The notes under the pieces: generated by a model
What the model saw: the letters and a program-made list of their open reading frames with translations, nothing else
What the model was told of the DNA's origin: nothing
Database searches by the model: none
DNA from: an uncultured Alphaproteobacteria bacterium
GTDB taxonomy: Bacteria > Pseudomonadota > Alphaproteobacteria > Rhizobiales > Xanthobacteraceae
DNA: 64,000 nt
Reading direction: 5' to 3'
Assembly (NCBI GenBank): GCA_963825265.1
Contig: CAWGSI010000005.1
Span: forward strand, 347,556-411,555
Part shown: positions 9,198-20,846 of the stretch, piece by piece
Layout: each line of letters starts with the position of its first letter
How positions within the stretch are numbered: the first letter of the stretch is position 1
Translations under genes and position numbers: made by a program

Positions 9198-9521
9198 TCA
9201 GCGCCCCTGATAGGCCGGCGTGCGCACGACCAGGCCGTCGAGCGCCTCCGTCACCTTGATCTGGCAGGCCAGCCGCGAGGTCGGTTTTACCTCGAAGGCG
9301 AAGTCGAGCATGTCCTCTTCCTCGCTCGACGGCGGGCCGACCGCCGGAAACCACTTCTCGTCCACGTGCACCAGGCAGGTCGCGCAGGTGCAGGAGCCGC
9401 CGCATTCGGCCACGATGCTGGTCACGTTATTGCGCTGCGCCGTCTCCATCACGGTCGAGCCGATTTCGGCCTCGACCGTGTGCACGGCGCCGTCATGTTC
9501 GATGTAAGTGATCTTCGGCAT
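9198..9521 (-). CDS. [2Fe-2S] ferredoxin, adrenodoxin/putidaredoxin type
   Basis: [12 protein letters not shown]...SRLACQI Cys pattern. Confidence 0.93.
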
Positions 9522-9527
9522 GAAAGA

Positions 9528-10553
9528 TTAGGCCACGCCGAGCTTTTTCTGCAGGCTGGTCGATGACGTGGTGTATTGGAACACCAACTTCTTGTCGGGA
9601 TAGACATAGTGGTAGGCCTTCTGCGCCATCAGCGCGGCCTCGTGGAAGCCCGACAAAATGAGCTTGAGCTTGCCCGGATAGGTGTTGATGTCGCCGATGG
9701 CGAACAGGCCGGGGATATTCGTCTCGAAGGCGGCGGTGTCGACTGGGATCAACTCGTCGTCCATCTTGATGCCCCAGTCGGCCACCGGGCCGAGCTTCAT
9801 GGTCAGCCCGAAGAACGGCAGCATGGCGTCGCATTCGACGCGTTCGACCGCGTCCTTGCCTTTGATCGAGGCGGCCGCGAGCTGGCCGTCGGCGCCTTCC
9901 AGCGCGGAAACCTGCCCGATCTTGAGGTCCATATGGCCTGCGGCGACCAGCGCGCGCATCTTGTTGACGCTGTCGGGCGCGCCGCGGAAATCGTCGCGCC
10001 GGTGCACCAGCGTCAGCCGTTTGGCGATCGGCTGCAGATTGAGCGTCCAGTCGAGCGCGCTATCGCCGCCGCCGACGATCAGCAGCGTCTTGTCGCGGAA
10101 AGCGTCCATCTTGCGCACGGCGTAATGCACCGACTTGCCCTCGTAGGGCTCGATGCCGGGGATCGGCGGGCGCTTGGGCTGGAACGAGCCGCCGCCGGCG
10201 CCGATCACCACCACCTTCGCCTCGAACACCTGGCCGCGGTCGGTGCCGATGCGGAATCCCGGCTCGCCGATCTTTTCCAGCGTCGTTACCATTTCGTTGA
10301 GGTGAAAAGTGGGCTTGAACGGCTTGATCTGCTCCATCAAAGCGTCGGTCAGCCCATGGCCGGTGATGTAGGGGATGCCGGGAATGTCGTAGATCGGCTT
10401 TTCCGGATAAAGCTCGGCGCATTGCCCGCCGACCTTGTCGAGGATGTCGACCAGATGCGCCTTGATGTCGAGCAGTCCGAGCTCGAATACCGCGAACAGG
10501 CCGACCGGCCCCGCGCCGATGATCAGAACGTCGGTCTTGATCGTATCGCTCAT
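9528..10553 (-). CDS. Ferredoxin-NADP+ reductase, thioredoxin-reductase-like (YumC/TrxB type, no CxxC)
   Basis: [61 protein letters not shown]; 6 bp upstream of the ferredoxin gene. Confidence 0.9.
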
Positions 10554-10601
10554 TCTATTCGTCCCGGTCTCGGCCGGCTCCTCACTTCTAGTGTCCGATG
10601 G

Positions 10602-17491: not shown

Positions 17492-19807
17492 TTATGCATT
17501 CTTCTTTTCCAAAGCGCGCCGGTGTTTCTCCAACGCCACGAACACCCGGTCGGGCGTCACCGGCAGATCGTTGAAGCGGATGCCGATGGCGTCGGCGATG
17601 GCGTTGGTCAACGCCGGCAGGAAGGCGGCGAGCGAGCCTTCGCCCGCTTCCTTGGCGCCGAACGGCCCGTGCGGATCGTTACTCTCGACGATGCCGACCT
17701 CGATCGGCGGGGAATCCTGGATGGTCGGCACGCGGTAATCGAGCATGTTGGCGGTGACCATGAGGCCGTCGTGATAGGCCGCTTCCTCACTCATGGCCTG
17801 GCCCATGCCCATCCACACCGAACCCTGCACCTGGCCCTCGACCGTCAGCCGGTTGAGCGCCTTGCCGCAGTCATGCGCGACCCAGACCTTGTCGACGGTG
17901 ACGACGCCGGTTTCTTCGTCGACCGACACTTCGACCACTTGCGCCGAGTAGGAATAACCCATGGTGCCGCCGATGGCGGCGCCGCGATATTTCTTGCCGC
18001 CGTGCGACTCCGGAATGGTCGAGTAGTTGCCAGTGACAGTGATGGTCCCTGAGTCCTTTAGCGCCTCGGTGACGACCTCGTCGAAGGTCGCGCCCTTGTC
18101 CTGCGCGCCGGCGCGATAAACTTCGCCCAGACATTCGATGTCCTCGGGCCGCGCCTCCAGCTTGCGCGCGGCGGCATTCGTGAGCACGCTTTTGAGATTG
18201 CGCGCGGCGTCGAGCGCGGCATTGCCGACCATGAAAGTGACGCGCGAGGAATAGGAGCCGTTGTCCTTCGGCACCACCTCGCTGTCGCCGGTGACGACGC
18301 GCACGCGCGAAAGATCGAGGCCGAGCACCTCGGCGACCGTCTGCGCCAGGATGGTGGTGGAGCCCTGGCCGATATCGGCGGCGCCAGAGAGCACCACGAT
18401 CGAGCCGTCGAAGTCGAGCTTGATCTTGACGGTGGCATGCGGCTCGCCGGTCCAGTTCACCGGCTTTGACGCGCCGGATATGTAGTGCGAGCAGGCCATA
18501 CCCAAGCCTTTGCCTTTAGCCAGCTTGCCCTTCCGCTGTTTCCAGCCGCTTTGTTTCTCGACCCAATCCATGCATTCAGGCAGGCCGTAGGAATTCACCA
18601 TCAAATCGTTGTCGGTGAAGGTCGGCGCGCTCAGTAGATTGGCGCGGCGCACGGCGAAGGGATCGAGCCCGAGCTCGGCCGCCATTTCATCGACCAAGCT
18701 TTCGAAGGCGAAGCGGATGTCGACCGTGCCGTGACCGCGGAAGGCGCCGCAGGGCGGCGTGTTGGTGAGCACGCGGCGGCCGACGTATTTGACGTTGTGC
18801 AGGTCGTAAATCGCATACAGCATCGAGCCAGCGTAGAGGATCGTTACCACGCCGTAGCCGGAATGCGCGCCGCCGCGCTGGTCGCAGTCGCATTCGACCG
18901 CGGTGATGCGGCCGTCCTTGCGCATGCCGATCTTGAGCTTGATATCGGTCTCGGGCCGCCCGCGATGGGTAATGAAGGTTTCCTCGCGCGTGGTCACAAG
19001 GCGCACCGTGCCGTTGCATTTGCGCGCCAATAGGGCGGCGATCAATTCAATGGCCAGTGTCTCGGTGCGGCAGCCGAAACCGCCGCCGACATGCGGCTTG
19101 ATCACGCGAATGCGCGACATTTCCATGCCGAGGATTTGCGACAGCATCAAATGCACGTAGTAGGGCACCTGGGTTGAGGCATGCACGGTCATGCGCTCGC
19201 GCACGGCGTCGTATTCGGCGACCGCGGCGTGCATTTCCATCTGGTTCTGGCAGACCTCGGCGCAGTTATAGCTGCCTTCGCGCACCAAATCGGCCTGCGT
19301 GAAGCCTTGCTCGATGCTGCCTAATTCGAACAGCACGTCGCGCTCGATATTGCCGGGCTTCTTCTCGTGCAGTTGCACGGCACCCGGCGCCAGCGCCGCC
19401 TTCGATGTGTAATAGCCGGGCAGTTCGCGCACCGTGAACTTGATGCGGCGCAGCGCCTCGCGCGCGCTGGCGTCATCGACCGCCGCCACGGCGGCCACCG
19501 GCTCGCCGCGATAACGCACTTTATCGCGCGCCAGCGGATATTCCGTGCGCGCGATCGGCAATACCCCGAAGCCTTTGTCGCAATCGGCGCCGGTGACGAT
19601 AGCGCGCACGCCGGGAACCTTCAGCGCGTCGGACACGTCGACTTCGACGATGTCGCCATGCGAATAAGGACTGCGGTAGATGCGGCCGGCGAGTTGGCCC
19701 GGCGCGACGATGTCGGCGGTGTATTTGGCGCGGCCGGAAACCTTCTCCGGCCCGTCGATCATCGGCACATAGCCGCCGATATTGTGCGTGGGGACGATCT
19801 TGTTCAC
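17492..19807 (-). CDS. hcrA: 4-hydroxybenzoyl-CoA reductase alpha subunit (molybdopterin-binding)
   Basis: [50 protein letters not shown]; GTGA overlap with hcrC. Confidence 0.88.
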
Positions 19808-20286
19808 GGCGCCACGCCTTGCGCGCCGAGCGCGGCAGCAAATTTCACCGCCTCGATGATTTTCACGTAGCCGGTGCAGCGGCAGATATTGCTGCCGAGC
19901 GCCGCGAGGATTTCTTCGTCGCTCGGGTTTGGATTTTTGCGCAGCAAGCCGGCCGAGGCCATAATGAAGCCGGGCGTGCAATAGCCGCATTGCGAGCCGA
20001 GCTTTTCGTGGAAGCCGCGCTGTACCGCGGACAATTGTCCGTCGTGGCCGAGCAACTCGATGGTGTCAACGCGCTTGCCGGCGACCGTCGCGGCCAATGT
20101 GAGGCAGGCGAGCGTGGGTTTATCGTCGATCAGCACGGTGCAGGCGCCGCATTCGCCGCCGTCGCAGCCGGTCTTGGTGCCGGTGAGGCCGATTTTTTCG
20201 CGCAGGAAATCGAGCAGCAGGATGTTGTCGGCGACCGCGTCGGCGCGGTCACGCCCGTTGAGCGTGAACTCAAGAAGCCGGATCAA
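19804..20286 (-). CDS. hcrC: 4-hydroxybenzoyl-CoA reductase gamma subunit (2x[2Fe-2S])
   Basis: [11 protein letters not shown] and QCGYCTPG...NICRCTGY; TTG start. Confidence 0.88.
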
Positions 20287-20423
20287 ATGTTTCTTCCCTG
20301 AACGGCGCGTGTTCGGCGATTCGCGCTTCGTCTGATTATGCTGTTACGACACACCAGCGCGCCAACCCCCTCCAGACCCATAATCGGGATTGGCTGGGAC
20401 GATTGGCCCCGCTCGGTCGGCAA

Positions 20424-20846
20424 TTAACCAAATCGGGCCATGACATCGCCCGGGATGGCGACGGCGTGGATCTTGTCGGGATGGCTCTTGTCGCGCGCCG
20501 CCCAAACCCGGCTTTCCGCCCCGTCCACCGCCAGCTCGCCGCCGATCGAAAGCCGGTGTTCGACGTCGAAGCTGGAGCGGCGAAACGCGGTCACCCGCGA
20601 GGCGATCTCCACCACGTCGCCGAATTTCACCGGAATCAGGAAATTGGCGCGCGCATCGACCAGCGGAATGCCGATAATGCCGAAGGTCTCCGCCAGTTCA
20701 TGCGCGGTCACGCCGAGCACGGCTTCAAACAGCATCCAGGTGCTGACGTCGAACATCTCGAAAAACCGGGCATTGAATACGATGCCGGCCGGGTCGCACT
20801 GGCCCCATTCGACGGTCAACTGTCTGCGGAAGGTGAATGACGCCAC
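20424..20846 (-). CDS. Hotdog-fold acyl-CoA thioesterase (4-hydroxybenzoyl-CoA thioesterase-like)
   Basis: WGQCDPAGIVFNARF motif, PLVDARANFLIPVKFGD. Start is GTG 20846 or TTG 20858. Confidence 0.82.
   Translation of the reverse strand: MASFTFRRQLTVEWGQCDPAGIVFNARFFEMFDVSTWMLFEAVLGVTAHELAETFGIIGIPLVDARANFLIPVKFGDVVEIASRVTAFRRSSFDVEHRLSIGGELAVDGAESRVWAARDKSHPDKIHAVAIPGDVMARFG

What the first reader, a model, noticed from the sequence alone, without database searches (positions are those of the whole stretch)
9198..20846. Hybrid aromatic pathway: 'anaerobic' 4-hydroxybenzoyl-CoA reductase coupled to the O2-dependent Box epoxidase
Seen: hcrC-hcrA-hcrB-CoA ligase form one overlapping/closely spaced operon that converges on boxC-boxB (4-bp overlap of 3' ends), with a 4-HBA-CoA-type thioesterase upstream and boxR divergent. 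No benzoyl-CoA reductase (bcr/bad/bzd) is in the window. Established: Hcr/Hba (Thauera, Rhodopseudomonas) feeds anaerobic ring reduction, whereas BoxB needs O2. Inference: 4-hydroxybenzoate -> 4-HB-CoA -> reductive dehydroxylation -> benzoyl-CoA -> O2 epoxidation, i.e. a microaerobic route for lignin-derived p-hydroxybenzoate that avoids PobA. I do not recall this coupling being characterised.
Basis: partly seen in the sequence, partly recalled or inferred. Interest (0 to 1): 0.8.

Follow-up and report, generated by a model that had tools for sequence, protein, structure and literature searches.

The report
Soil bacterium's fused hcr–box aromatic cluster
A soil Xanthobacteraceae (Pseudolabrys-like) genome places genes for the "anaerobic" removal of the hydroxyl group from 4-hydroxybenzoyl-CoA directly against genes for the oxygen-dependent Box ring-opening route, which suggests but does not prove that lignin-derived 4-hydroxybenzoate is burnt through a mixed reductive/oxidative CoA pathway.

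Summary
Window 9198-20858 encodes a 4HBT-type thioesterase, HcrC, HcrA, HcrB and a benzoate-CoA-ligase-family enzyme as one tight minus-strand operon. Its 3' end overlaps the 3' end of boxC-boxB by 4 bp (TTAA). boxR lies divergent from boxC. No benzoyl-CoA reductase gene is in the 64 kb.

The Hcr proteins are true 4-hydroxybenzoyl-CoA reductase orthologues: HcrA scores 981 bits to Thauera 1RM6_A, and HcrB keeps the four Cys of the family-specific [4Fe-4S] loop.

The same layout recurs in about 20 species-level soil MAGs, that is 19 of 23 full-flank loci with HcrA at 87.5% identity or more. It is absent from the sister group (0 of 32). Two sister loci, however, join hcr-ligase to boxD.

boxA and boxD are absent. 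boxR is followed by a TrxR-type ferredoxin-NADP reductase and a [2Fe-2S] ferredoxin. BoxR operator motifs sit only before boxC, not before hcr.

The pathway inference is plausible but unproven, because the rest of the genome could not be searched for BCR or pobA. It has a partial precedent: A. aromaticum EbN1 is reported to use a "presumptive reductive dehydroxylation" before the box pathway during aerobic growth.

Verdict: a new variant of known parts, of moderate interest.

The parts
20424..20858 (-). Hot-dog fold thioesterase of the Pseudomonas 4-hydroxybenzoyl-CoA thioesterase type. It is the first gene of the hcr operon.
   Evidence: PF13279 (2.5e-13) and PF03061. Best solved relative is 1BVQ at 3.3e-12, with the Asp17 motif 'GQCDPAGIV' conserved. 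It is found upstream of hcrC in most Xanthobacteraceae loci.
19804..20286 (-). hcrC, the 4-hydroxybenzoyl-CoA reductase gamma subunit carrying two [2Fe-2S] clusters.
   Evidence: TIGR03193 scores 243.3 bits, slightly below the 257.8 cut-off. Fer2 and Fer2_2 domains are present. The stop codon overlaps the hcrA start, GTGA.
17492..19807 (-). hcrA, the 4-hydroxybenzoyl-CoA reductase alpha (molybdopterin) subunit, 771 aa.
   Evidence: TIGR03194 scores 1157 bits against a 994.6 cut-off. 1RM6_A scores 981 bits over the full length. In the library clustered at 50% identity, only one full-length cluster lies at 60% identity, followed by a drop to 45%.
16382..17416 (-). hcrB, the 4-HBCR beta subunit with FAD and the family-specific extra [4Fe-4S] cluster. 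The alignment suggests the real start is the ATG at about 17398.
   Evidence: TIGR03195 scores 413.6 bits against a 404.6 cut-off. 1RM6_B scores 275 bits. The insertion loop with Cys equivalents of Thauera C122, C138, C146 and C155 is conserved.
14778..16370 (-). Aromatic acid-CoA ligase of the benzoate-CoA ligase family. It is the last gene of the hcr operon, and whether its substrate is 4-hydroxybenzoate, benzoate or both cannot be assigned from sequence.
   Evidence: TIGR02262 scores 726 bits against a 375 cut-off. It scores 518 bits to B. xenovorans benzoate-CoA ligase 2V7B and 473 bits to R. palustris BadA, but only 34% identity to the ligase beside hcr in Glaciimonas. A ligase of this family accompanies hcr in many loci, including 16 of 32 full-flank loci that lack boxBC.
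13327..14781 (+). boxB, the di-iron benzoyl-CoA 2,3-epoxidase. Its stop overlaps the ligase stop (TTAA, 14778-14781).
   Evidence: TIGR03225 scores 886 bits against a 499 cut-off. A. evansii BoxB 3PER scores 691 bits, and the EEGRH and EEAHH motifs are conserved. The overlap was read directly.
11668..13323 (+). boxC, the 2,3-epoxybenzoyl-CoA dihydrolase (ring-cleaving crotonase-family enzyme).
   Evidence: TIGR03222 scores 933 bits against a 712 cut-off. The profile begins at residue 38 of the long ORF, and an in-frame ATG lies at 11668.
11508..11667 (.). boxR-boxC divergent control region with two conserved operator-like boxes. They lie at 11523-11536 (TGCATTATAATGCG, containing the perfect palindrome GCATTATAATGC) and 11606-11619 (TGAAAAATAATGCA).
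   Evidence: In an alignment of 20 orthologous spacers, only these two boxes are conserved at 90% or more. The consensus is ATGCATTATTtTgCAT and GCAnTATAATGCATGT, which is the TGCA-N6-TGCA type. No such site lies upstream of hcr.
10602..11507 (-). boxR, an XRE-HTH plus shikimate-kinase-like regulator of the BzdR/BoxR type.
   Evidence: PRK08154 scores 388.9 bits against a 204 cut-off. HTH_31 and SKI domains are present.
9528..10553 (-). Thioredoxin-reductase-type ferredoxin-NADP+ oxidoreductase, 48 bp downstream of boxR. It is a candidate electron supplier, though possibly a housekeeping gene.
   Evidence: 5YGQ (ferredoxin-NADP reductase) scores 610 bits, E 1.5e-182. It follows boxR in the syntenic loci.
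9198..9521 (-). Adrenodoxin/putidaredoxin-type [2Fe-2S] ferredoxin, 6 bp downstream of the reductase. It is a candidate electron carrier for BoxB and/or Hcr.
   Evidence: 3HUI at 1.3e-37 and 1E9M at 5.5e-30. A 74%-identical ferredoxin directly follows hcrCAB-ligase in L027, which has no box genes.

Best explanation
The region is a benzoyl-CoA funnel cluster of an uncultured soil Xanthobacteraceae (Pseudolabrys-like) bacterium. Two known modules have been joined in it.

Module 1 is thioesterase-hcrCAB-ligase. It activates 4-hydroxybenzoate (and probably benzoate) to the CoA ester. It then removes the para-hydroxyl reductively with a genuine 4-hydroxybenzoyl-CoA reductase, giving benzoyl-CoA. 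The thioesterase acts as a CoA-pool safety valve.

Module 2 is boxR / boxC-boxB. It senses benzoyl-CoA, epoxidises it with O2 (BoxB) and opens the ring hydrolytically (BoxC). BoxD, encoded elsewhere here but inside the cluster in relatives, then oxidises the semialdehyde.

Benzoyl-CoA made by Hcr is therefore most likely consumed by Box, at least when some O2 is present. No boxA is present in the 64 kb or in the syntenic clusters. The NADPH-dependent TrxR-type reductase and [2Fe-2S] ferredoxin transcribed behind boxR are the best candidates for delivering electrons to BoxB and perhaps to Hcr.

Shown: gene identities, cofactor-binding signatures, operon geometry, conservation of the layout, and transcription of both modules by relatives in soil.

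Inferred: ligase substrate, electron donors, flux from Hcr to Box, the O2 regime, and absence of a benzoyl-CoA reductase elsewhere in the genome.
For: - Orthology. HcrA and HcrB score above the NCBIfam equivalog cut-offs, HcrA scores 981 bits to 1RM6_A, and all four Cys of the [4Fe-4S] loop are kept. The HcrA clade is compact and well separated from other XDH-family enzymes. BoxB and BoxC score far above their cut-offs and the BoxB di-iron motifs are intact.
- Geometry. hcrC/hcrA overlap by 4 bp, hcrB and the ligase are 11 bp apart, and boxB/ligase overlap convergently by 4 bp.
- Conservation. Among full-flank loci with HcrA at 87.5% identity or more, 19 of 23 have boxB within 10 kb, and L022 has a partial boxB. 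Some carry boxD between the ligase and boxB.
- A second arrangement links hcrCAB-ligase to a BoxD equivalog (755 bits against a 444 cut-off) in L044 and L046.
- No BCR was found within 10 kb of hcr in the loci whose flanks were annotated (L001, L027, L030, L044, L046, L059), nor in the ORFs scanned across the 64-kb window.
- The denitrifier-type electron system beside hcr (KGOR-like POR plus a 4Fe-4S ferredoxin in Herminiimonas L083) is absent here. Instead, a [2Fe-2S] ferredoxin follows hcr-ligase in L027.
- Soil metatranscriptome contigs at 88% identity or more cover both hcrCAB and boxBC in four runs.
- Precedent: Becker et al. 2022 report a presumptive reductive dehydroxylation ahead of the box pathway in aerobically grown A. 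aromaticum EbN1 (PMC9765128).
- From established knowledge: in R. palustris the hba genes cluster with the benzoyl-CoA pathway actually used (bad). The gene numbering rpa0657-0672 is visible.
Against: - Whole-genome absence of bcr/bad/bzd or bam could not be checked. A mangrove study lists Pseudolabrys MAGs among Pseudomonadota with multiple aromatic pathways and does not say which (PMC11704145).
- The BoxR operator motif is confined to the boxR-boxC spacer. The hcr upstream regions are poorly conserved and lack it.
- Adjacency arose in one or a few events and is absent from 32 of 32 sister-clade loci, so it is weak statistical evidence.
- From my own knowledge, not tested here: Thauera 4-HBCR needs a very low-potential ferredoxin and is inactivated by air. 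Adrenodoxin-type [2Fe-2S] ferredoxins are much less reducing.
- The reductase is about 610 bits to the R. palustris enzyme, so the reductase/ferredoxin pair may be housekeeping neighbours.
- Ligase specificity cannot be read from sequence. This is also stated in PMC5852087.
Confidence: 0.55

Rival explanations
1. The two modules share a benzoyl-CoA hub but are not coupled in time. The organism would be a facultative anaerobe. Hcr would work only in anoxia and feed a benzoyl-CoA reductase encoded elsewhere. Box would serve benzoate when O2 is present. The modules would sit together only because they share the CoA ligase, as in Thauera and Aromatoleum, where one organism holds both routes.
For: - There is no BoxR operator upstream of hcr.
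- The hcr module sits away from boxBC in 32 of 32 sister-clade loci.
- Only one ligase is present for both modules.
- EbN1 expresses the ligases of both routes under both regimes.
- Xanthobacteraceae include BCR-containing genera such as Rhodopseudomonas.
- Pseudolabrys MAGs are described as having multiple aromatic pathways.
Against: - No BCR, KGOR or 4Fe-4S ferredoxin genes were found in the 64 kb or in the annotated hcr flanks.
- hcr is linked to boxD in two loci that lack boxBC.
- The window carries O2-dependent enzymes such as an extradiol dioxygenase.
- hcr transcripts are abundant in bulk-soil metatranscriptomes.
Confidence: 0.3
2. The Hcr-like enzyme acts on a different substrate, such as another para-hydroxylated aryl-CoA like protocatechuyl-CoA. 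Alternatively, it runs as a hydroxylase like other xanthine-oxidase-family enzymes. In either case the cluster would not convert 4-hydroxybenzoate to benzoyl-CoA.
For: - HcrC scores slightly below its equivalog cut-off, at 243 against 257.8.
- HcrB carries a 15-residue insertion relative to the Thauera enzyme.
- There is no xdhC-like maturation gene, unlike the betaproteobacterial loci.
Against: - HcrA and HcrB exceed their equivalog cut-offs.
- HcrA aligns over its full length to the crystallised enzyme at 981 bits.
- The [4Fe-4S] loop that defines the inverted, reductive electron flow is intact.
- No intermediate clade lies between these proteins and the Thauera enzyme.
- A 4-hydroxybenzoyl-CoA-type thioesterase and a benzoate-family ligase are co-transcribed with hcr.
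Confidence: 0.07
3. The adjacency is a neutral, lineage-specific rearrangement with no functional meaning. Two catabolic islands would have landed between the housekeeping cysJI and hpn genes.
For: - The flanks are housekeeping genes (sulfite reductase, hopanoid synthesis).
- Adjacency is confined to one clade.
- Insertions such as a transposase and a two-component system split the modules in L001/L022.
Against: - The layout is kept across about 20 species-level genomes despite local indels.
- There is an independent hcr-boxD link.
- The product of one module is the substrate and the inducer of the other (established biochemistry of BoxR and BoxB).
Confidence: 0.08

Closest known systems
4-hydroxybenzoyl-CoA reductase HcrCAB of Thauera aromatica (PDB 1RM6/1SB3) and HbaBCD of Rhodopseudomonas palustris
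   Same: It has the same three subunits in the same gene order (gamma-alpha-beta). HcrA aligns over its full length at 981 bits. HcrB keeps the extra [4Fe-4S] loop with all four Cys. A CoA ligase is encoded alongside, as with hbaA.
   Different: - It is clustered with the O2-dependent box genes rather than with bad/bcr.
- No 2-oxoglutarate:ferredoxin oxidoreductase, 2[4Fe-4S] ferredoxin or xdhC-like gene lies nearby, unlike L082-L084.
- A 4HBT-type thioesterase leads the operon.
- HcrB has a 15-residue insertion.
- No HbaR-type regulator was seen.
Box pathway clusters of Azoarcus evansii / Aromatoleum and Burkholderia xenovorans (boxABC, boxD, bclA, boxR, thioesterase)
   Same: boxB and boxC are adjacent. 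boxR is divergent, with TGCA-N6-TGCA-type operators in the spacer. A benzoate-CoA-ligase-family gene and a thioesterase lie in the neighbourhood.
   Different: - There is no boxA anywhere in the 64 kb or in the syntenic clusters.
- boxD is absent here, although some relatives carry it between the ligase and boxB.
- boxR is followed by a TrxR-type ferredoxin-NADP reductase and a [2Fe-2S] ferredoxin.
- The ligase belongs to the hcr operon.
Aerobic 3-(4-hydroxyphenyl)propanoate degradation model in Aromatoleum aromaticum EbN1 (Becker et al. 2022, PMC9765128)
   Same: It has the same proposed chemistry: 4-hydroxybenzoyl-CoA, then a presumptive reductive dehydroxylation to benzoyl-CoA, then the box pathway under oxic conditions. 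4-hydroxybenzoate export there implies thioesterase action.
   Different: - EbN1 is a denitrifier that also has a class I benzoyl-CoA reductase.
- In EbN1, no box genes lie within 10 kb of hcr (L084).
- The dehydroxylation step is labelled presumptive.
- Here the two modules are physically fused, in abundant soil Alphaproteobacteria.

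Membership tests
4-hydroxybenzoyl-CoA reductase (xanthine-oxidase family, reductive) | Alpha subunit orthologous to HcrA/HbaC (molybdopterin-binding) | tested here: met
   TIGR03194 scores 1157 bits against a 994.6 cut-off. 1RM6_A scores 981 bits over residues 5-761. The next protein family lies at only 45% identity.
4-hydroxybenzoyl-CoA reductase (xanthine-oxidase family, reductive) | Beta subunit with FAD domain plus the about 40-residue insertion whose four Cys bind the extra [4Fe-4S] cluster | tested here: met
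   TIGR03195 scores 413.6 bits against a 404.6 cut-off. The alignment to 1RM6_B shows the loop 'CLDTRCIFYNQSEWWRDANNHCLKTTGTVCHVAPKSRGVC' with the equivalents of C122, C138, C146 and C155. The residue numbers of the Thauera ligands come from my memory of the structure paper.
4-hydroxybenzoyl-CoA reductase (xanthine-oxidase family, reductive) | Gamma subunit with two [2Fe-2S] domains, co-encoded with alpha and beta | tested here: inconclusive
   Fer2 and Fer2_2 domains are present and the gene is translationally coupled to hcrA. However, TIGR03193 scores 243.3 bits, below the 257.8 cut-off.
4-hydroxybenzoyl-CoA reductase (xanthine-oxidase family, reductive) | Ferredoxin-dependent reduction of 4-hydroxybenzoyl-CoA to benzoyl-CoA | not testable with these tools
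   This needs an enzyme assay.
Box (benzoyl-CoA epoxide) pathway | BoxB di-iron epoxidase | tested here: met
   TIGR03225 scores 886 bits against a 499 cut-off. 3PER scores 691 bits, and the EEGRH and EEAHH motifs are kept.
Box (benzoyl-CoA epoxide) pathway | BoxC epoxybenzoyl-CoA dihydrolase | tested here: met
   TIGR03222 scores 933 bits against a 712 cut-off.
Box (benzoyl-CoA epoxide) pathway | BoxA NADPH-dependent Fe-S flavoprotein reductase | tested here: not met
   The only TIGR03224 matches are the CysJ-like flavoproteins, at 75 and 74 bits against a 459 cut-off. In the syntenic loci there is no room for a boxA gene between boxB, boxC and boxR. It could still be encoded elsewhere in the genome.
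Box (benzoyl-CoA epoxide) pathway | BoxD 3,4-dehydroadipyl-CoA semialdehyde dehydrogenase | tested here: not met
   tblastn with a BoxD equivalog (L001, 739 bits against a 444 cut-off) finds nothing in the window. It is present in L001/L022, L003, L010, L011, L016, L023, L044 and L046.
Box (benzoyl-CoA epoxide) pathway | BoxR/BzdR-type regulator with TGCA-repeat operators in the promoter | tested here: met
   PRK08154 scores 389 bits. Two conserved TGCA-N6-TGCA-type boxes lie in the boxR-boxC spacer across 20 loci. The operator consensus itself is recalled from the Azoarcus CIB literature.
Anaerobic benzoyl-CoA pathway (class I/II benzoyl-CoA reductase) | bcr/bad/bzd or bam genes present | tested here: not met
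   None was found among the ORFs scanned in the 64-kb window or in the annotated flanks of L001, L027, L030, L044, L046 and L059. The rest of the genome could not be searched with these tools.

The most novel reading that the evidence does not exclude
Abundant aerobic soil Xanthobacteraceae that lack any benzoyl-CoA reductase run an oxygen-compatible reductive dehydroxylation. An NADPH-driven TrxR-type reductase and a [2Fe-2S] ferredoxin would replace both BoxA and the 2-oxoglutarate:ferredoxin system. They would feed electrons to 4-HBCR and to BoxB. Lignin-derived 4-hydroxybenzoate and p-coumarate would then be mineralised in oxic or micro-oxic soil through benzoyl-CoA and its epoxide rather than through PobA and protocatechuate.
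Probability: 0.25. Interest if true: 0.7.

Novelty: new variant of a known kind. Interest (0 to 1): 0.5.

Why it matters
4-Hydroxybenzoyl-CoA reductase is treated as an enzyme of anaerobic metabolism, while the Box pathway is the CoA-dependent aerobic, low-O2 route.

A conserved physical fusion of the two in a very abundant soil lineage has two implications. First, HcrA relatives occur in more than 590 species-level genomes, and hcr transcripts appear in bulk-soil metatranscriptomes. Second, it would mean that a share of lignin-derived p-hydroxybenzoate is processed by a mixed reductive/oxidative CoA route that metagenome surveys currently score as 'anaerobic potential'.

It also raises two biochemical questions. 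One is how a low-potential, O2-labile molybdenum enzyme is supplied with electrons in an aerobe. The other is what replaces BoxA. The practical consequence is that hcr genes alone should not be read as markers of anoxic aromatic degradation.

Tried and rejected
- Shared regulation. I looked for the BoxR operator upstream of hcrC, the thioesterase and the 221-aa gene. There was no TGCA-N6-TGCA site (one mismatch or fewer) and no GCATTATAATGC-like site (two mismatches or fewer). Phylogenetic footprints of these spacers show no conserved box.
- The sigma-70 promoter scan found nothing in 9000-22000.
- Literature searches for 4-HBCR together with boxB or the box pathway returned only a SAR324 survey and the EbN1 paper. 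Searches with Bradyrhizobium or Pseudolabrys gave no statement on BCR absence. Vagts et al. 2021 is not held.
- A plasmid search for cultured carriers of HcrA gave only XDH-family hits below 36% identity.
- The genome-contig scan returned only the 80 closest loci, all Xanthobacteraceae-like. Wider taxonomic synteny therefore had to be sampled through three betaproteobacterial loci, none of which is linked to box.
- Ligase specificity could not be settled. The ligase resembles benzoate-CoA ligases more than the hcr-linked Glaciimonas ligase, but no HbaA reference was at hand.
- Whole-genome presence of BCR or pobA could not be tested.
- An early tblastn used boxC one base out of frame, at 11669. 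The positions were unaffected, and the search was redone in frame.

Full report
**What is in the window**

The window has 62-69% G+C. HcrA's nearest relatives, at 90-96% identity, are all from soil or rhizosphere metagenomes and from MAGs named Pseudolabrys or Xanthobacteraceae. No public run holds more than 70% of the region's words, so the source is an uncultured soil bacterium.

Reading the minus strand from 21538 down to 14778, the genes are as follows.
- A 221-aa protein, 20873-21538, with no Pfam or NCBIfam family. It is a clear homologue of the 'CPR-C4' protease (PDB 7OB6, 1e-67).
- A hot-dog thioesterase, 20424-20858, starting 14 bp later. Its best solved relative is the Pseudomonas 4-hydroxybenzoyl-CoA thioesterase, and the catalytic Asp motif is kept.
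- hcrC, 19804-20286, after a 137-bp spacer.
- hcrA, 17492-19807. Its GTG start overlaps the hcrC stop as GTGA.
- hcrB, 16382-17416.
- A benzoate-CoA-ligase-family gene, 14778-16370, starting 11 bp after the hcrB stop.

On the plus strand, boxC (ATG 11668 to 13323) and boxB (13327-14781) run towards this operon. The two stop codons share the tetranucleotide TTAA at 14778-14781.

Divergent from boxC lies boxR (10602-11507). It is followed on the same strand by a thioredoxin-reductase-type ferredoxin-NADP reductase after 48 bp (9528-10553; 610 bits to PDB 5YGQ). A further 6 bp on lies an adrenodoxin/putidaredoxin-type [2Fe-2S] ferredoxin (9198-9521).

The flanks are housekeeping genes: hopanoid genes on the left, and cysJI, a nirA-like gene and cysG on the right.

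**Are the Hcr proteins the real enzyme?**

Yes, as far as sequence can tell.
- HcrA and HcrB exceed the NCBIfam equivalog cut-offs (1157 against 995, and 413.6 against 404.6). HcrC misses its cut-off narrowly, at 243 against 258.
- HcrA aligns end to end with the crystallised Thauera aromatica alpha subunit at 981 bits.
- HcrB contains the insertion that distinguishes 4-HBCR from all other xanthine-oxidase-family flavoprotein subunits. All four cysteines that bind the additional [4Fe-4S] cluster are present.
- In an exhaustive search of a protein library clustered at 50% identity, there is essentially one full-length cluster, at 60% identity. After that comes a sharp drop to 45% identity and 684 bits.

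The window protein therefore lies inside the compact 4-HBCR clade, which also contains Aromatoleum, Thauera, Georgfuchsia and Sulfuritalea. BoxB and BoxC are equally clear (886 and 933 bits), and BoxB shares the EEGRH and EEAHH di-iron motifs with the A. evansii structure.

**Is the adjacency more than chance?**

A scan of one genome per GTDB species found at least 591 genomes with an HcrA relative. The 80 best are all Xanthobacteraceae-like MAGs. I mapped the window's proteins onto them.
- Among loci with full 10-kb flanks and HcrA at 87.5% identity or more, 19 of 23 carry boxB within 10 kb. L022 adds a boxB cut off by the locus end.
- These loci have the same order: CPR-C4-like, thioesterase, hcrCAB, ligase, then boxB-boxC converging, then boxR, the reductase and the ferredoxin.
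- Several of them carry a BoxD equivalog between the ligase and boxB: L003, L010, L011, L023, and also L001/L022 behind a 6.5-kb insertion with a transposase. L016, whose contig ends before boxB could be seen, also carries boxD after the ligase. The window has no boxD at all.
- Among 32 full-flank loci with HcrA at 82-87% identity, none has boxB or boxC nearby. There the thioesterase-hcrCAB module, usually with the ligase, sits among unrelated genes such as urea transport, MFS transporters and DNA polymerases.

The fusion is thus a lineage-specific arrangement that is inherited, not an assembly artefact. Statistically, though, it reflects one or a few events.

Two of the sister loci (L044, L046) place hcrCAB-ligase directly beside a BoxD equivalog (755 bits against a 444 cut-off). 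This is a second link between hcr and the box pathway, in a different arrangement.

No BCR-type gene was found in any flank I annotated, nor among the ORFs scanned across the 64-kb window.

**Contrast with canonical contexts**

In the betaproteobacterial loci (Glaciimonas, Herminiimonas sp. CN, A. aromaticum EbN1), hcrCAB is followed by an xdhC-like maturation gene. In Herminiimonas it is preceded by a pyruvate/2-oxoglutarate:ferredoxin-oxidoreductase pair and a small 4Fe-4S ferredoxin, which is the classical low-potential electron supply. No box genes lie within 10 kb.

None of these accessory genes accompanies the Xanthobacteraceae module. In L027, instead, a [2Fe-2S] ferredoxin 74% identical to the window's follows hcrCAB-ligase directly, and a TetR regulator lies upstream.

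This hints that the [2Fe-2S] ferredoxin may serve Hcr. Together with the missing boxA, it makes the reductase/ferredoxin pair behind boxR the obvious candidate electron source for the cluster.

Two cautions apply.
- The reductase is so similar to the R. palustris enzyme that it may simply be a conserved housekeeping neighbour.
- From my own knowledge, adrenodoxin-type ferredoxins are far less reducing than the ferredoxin used by Thauera 4-HBCR.

**Regulation and expression**

An alignment of 20 orthologous boxR-boxC spacers shows only two blocks conserved at 90% or more: ATGCATTATTtTgCAT and GCAnTATAATGCATGT. These have the TGCA-N6-TGCA architecture known for BzdR/BoxR operators.

In the window these blocks lie at 11606-11619 and 11523-11536, and they are the only such sites in the cluster. 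The spacers upstream of hcrC, the thioesterase and the CPR-C4-like gene are poorly conserved and lack the motif. There is therefore no in-silico sign that BoxR controls hcr, and no regulator of hcr is evident in the window.

Contigs from four soil metatranscriptomes, at 88% identity or more, cover hcrC, hcrA and hcrB as well as boxB and boxC. Relatives thus transcribe both modules in soil, but this says nothing about oxygen or co-regulation.

**Ligase**

The ligase belongs to the benzoate-CoA ligase family. It scores 726 bits on TIGR02262, 518 bits to the B. xenovorans enzyme and 473 bits to R. palustris BadA. It is only 34% identical to the ligase beside hcr in Glaciimonas.

A ligase of this family also accompanies hcr in 16 of the 32 full-flank loci without boxBC, which argues that it activates 4-hydroxybenzoate. 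It is the only ligase in the fused cluster, so it probably serves benzoate as well. Specificity cannot be called from sequence, as PMC5852087 also notes.

**Interpretation**

The most economical reading is a benzoyl-CoA funnel. The aromatic acid is made into its CoA ester. Hcr removes the para-hydroxyl. Benzoyl-CoA de-represses boxCB through BoxR and is epoxidised and cleaved. The thioesterase guards the CoA pool.

The main rival is that Hcr feeds a benzoyl-CoA reductase encoded elsewhere and operates only in anoxia, with the ligase as the shared element. I could not exclude this rival, for three reasons. Xanthobacteraceae include BCR-bearing genera. A mangrove study describes Pseudolabrys MAGs as having 'multiple' aromatic pathways without saying which.

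**Comparison with what is known, and novelty**

Both enzyme systems are textbook. The idea of a reductive dehydroxylation ahead of the box pathway is not wholly new. Becker et al. [quoted passage not shown] Benzoyl-CoA then goes to the box pathway under oxic conditions.

In the searchable library, that is the only paper joining 4-hydroxybenzoyl-CoA to the box pathway.

Four things appear to be undescribed:
- a physically fused hcr-box cluster, conserved across about 20 species of an abundant soil lineage;
- the absence of boxA from that cluster;
- a TrxR-type reductase and [2Fe-2S] ferredoxin behind boxR;
- the absence of the classical low-potential donor genes.

I rate it a new variant of a known kind, of moderate interest. 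The flux, the oxygen regime and the electron donors remain to be shown.

Noticed in passing
window 9198-10553 (-), with boxR 10602-11507: The box cluster has no boxA. Instead, boxR is followed on the same strand by a TrxR-type ferredoxin-NADP reductase (gap 48 bp) and a [2Fe-2S] ferredoxin (gap 6 bp). This trio is kept in the syntenic loci. It may be a BoxA substitute, or it may be a housekeeping neighbour, since the reductase scores 610 bits to the R. palustris enzyme.
   Followed up: partly
window 20873-21538 (-): This 221-aa protein has no Pfam or NCBIfam family but matches the 'CPR-C4' protease structures 7OB6 and 7PJO at 1e-67. It lies 14 bp upstream of the thioesterase-hcr operon and is conserved there in the box-linked clade. 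Its role is unknown.
   Followed up: partly
whole window; L001/L022, L003, L010, L011, L016, L023, L044, L046: boxD (3,4-dehydroadipyl-CoA semialdehyde dehydrogenase) is absent from the whole 64 kb. In the box-linked relatives L001/L022, L003, L010, L011 and L023 it sits between the ligase and boxB, and in L016 it follows the ligase before the contig ends. L044 and L046 have boxD next to hcr-ligase without boxBC.
   Followed up: yes
L027:8163-15360: This MAG, labelled Rhizobium sp. Q54, has a divergent TetR regulator followed by thioesterase-hcrCAB-ligase and then a [2Fe-2S] ferredoxin 74% identical to the window's. It has no box genes, and an unrelated molybdoenzyme and sox genes lie downstream.
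   Followed up: partly
L082, L083, L084 (Glaciimonas, Herminiimonas sp. CN, A. aromaticum EbN1): Betaproteobacterial hcrCAB is followed by an xdhC-like maturation gene. Herminiimonas also has a POR/KGOR-like pair and a 4Fe-4S ferredoxin upstream. The Xanthobacteraceae module has none of these.
   Followed up: partly
window 17425-17444: A perfect 20-nt palindrome, ATTCCCGCGGAAGCGGGAAT, lies in the spacer between hcrA and hcrB. It may be an mRNA hairpin inside the operon.
   Followed up: no
window 44527-45495 (-) and 51465-52352 (-): There is an extradiol (catechol 2,3-dioxygenase family) gene and a LigK/PcmE-type 4-carboxy-4-hydroxy-2-oxoadipate aldolase, without the rest of a protocatechuate 4,5-cleavage cluster nearby. 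This shows other O2-dependent aromatic routes in the genome. No pobA was seen in the window.
   Followed up: partly
window 21955-31488 (+): Two assimilatory sulfite/nitrite-reductase-type systems lie in a row. The first is cysJ-cysI. Then comes a long ORF (up to 963 aa) whose C-terminal 595 aa match NirA. Then comes a second sulfite-reductase flavoprotein with an RnfB-like Fe-S segment, and finally cysG.
   Followed up: no
window 16382-17416 (HcrB residues about 197-211): HcrB carries a 15-residue insertion relative to the Thauera beta subunit, downstream of the [4Fe-4S] loop.
   Followed up: no
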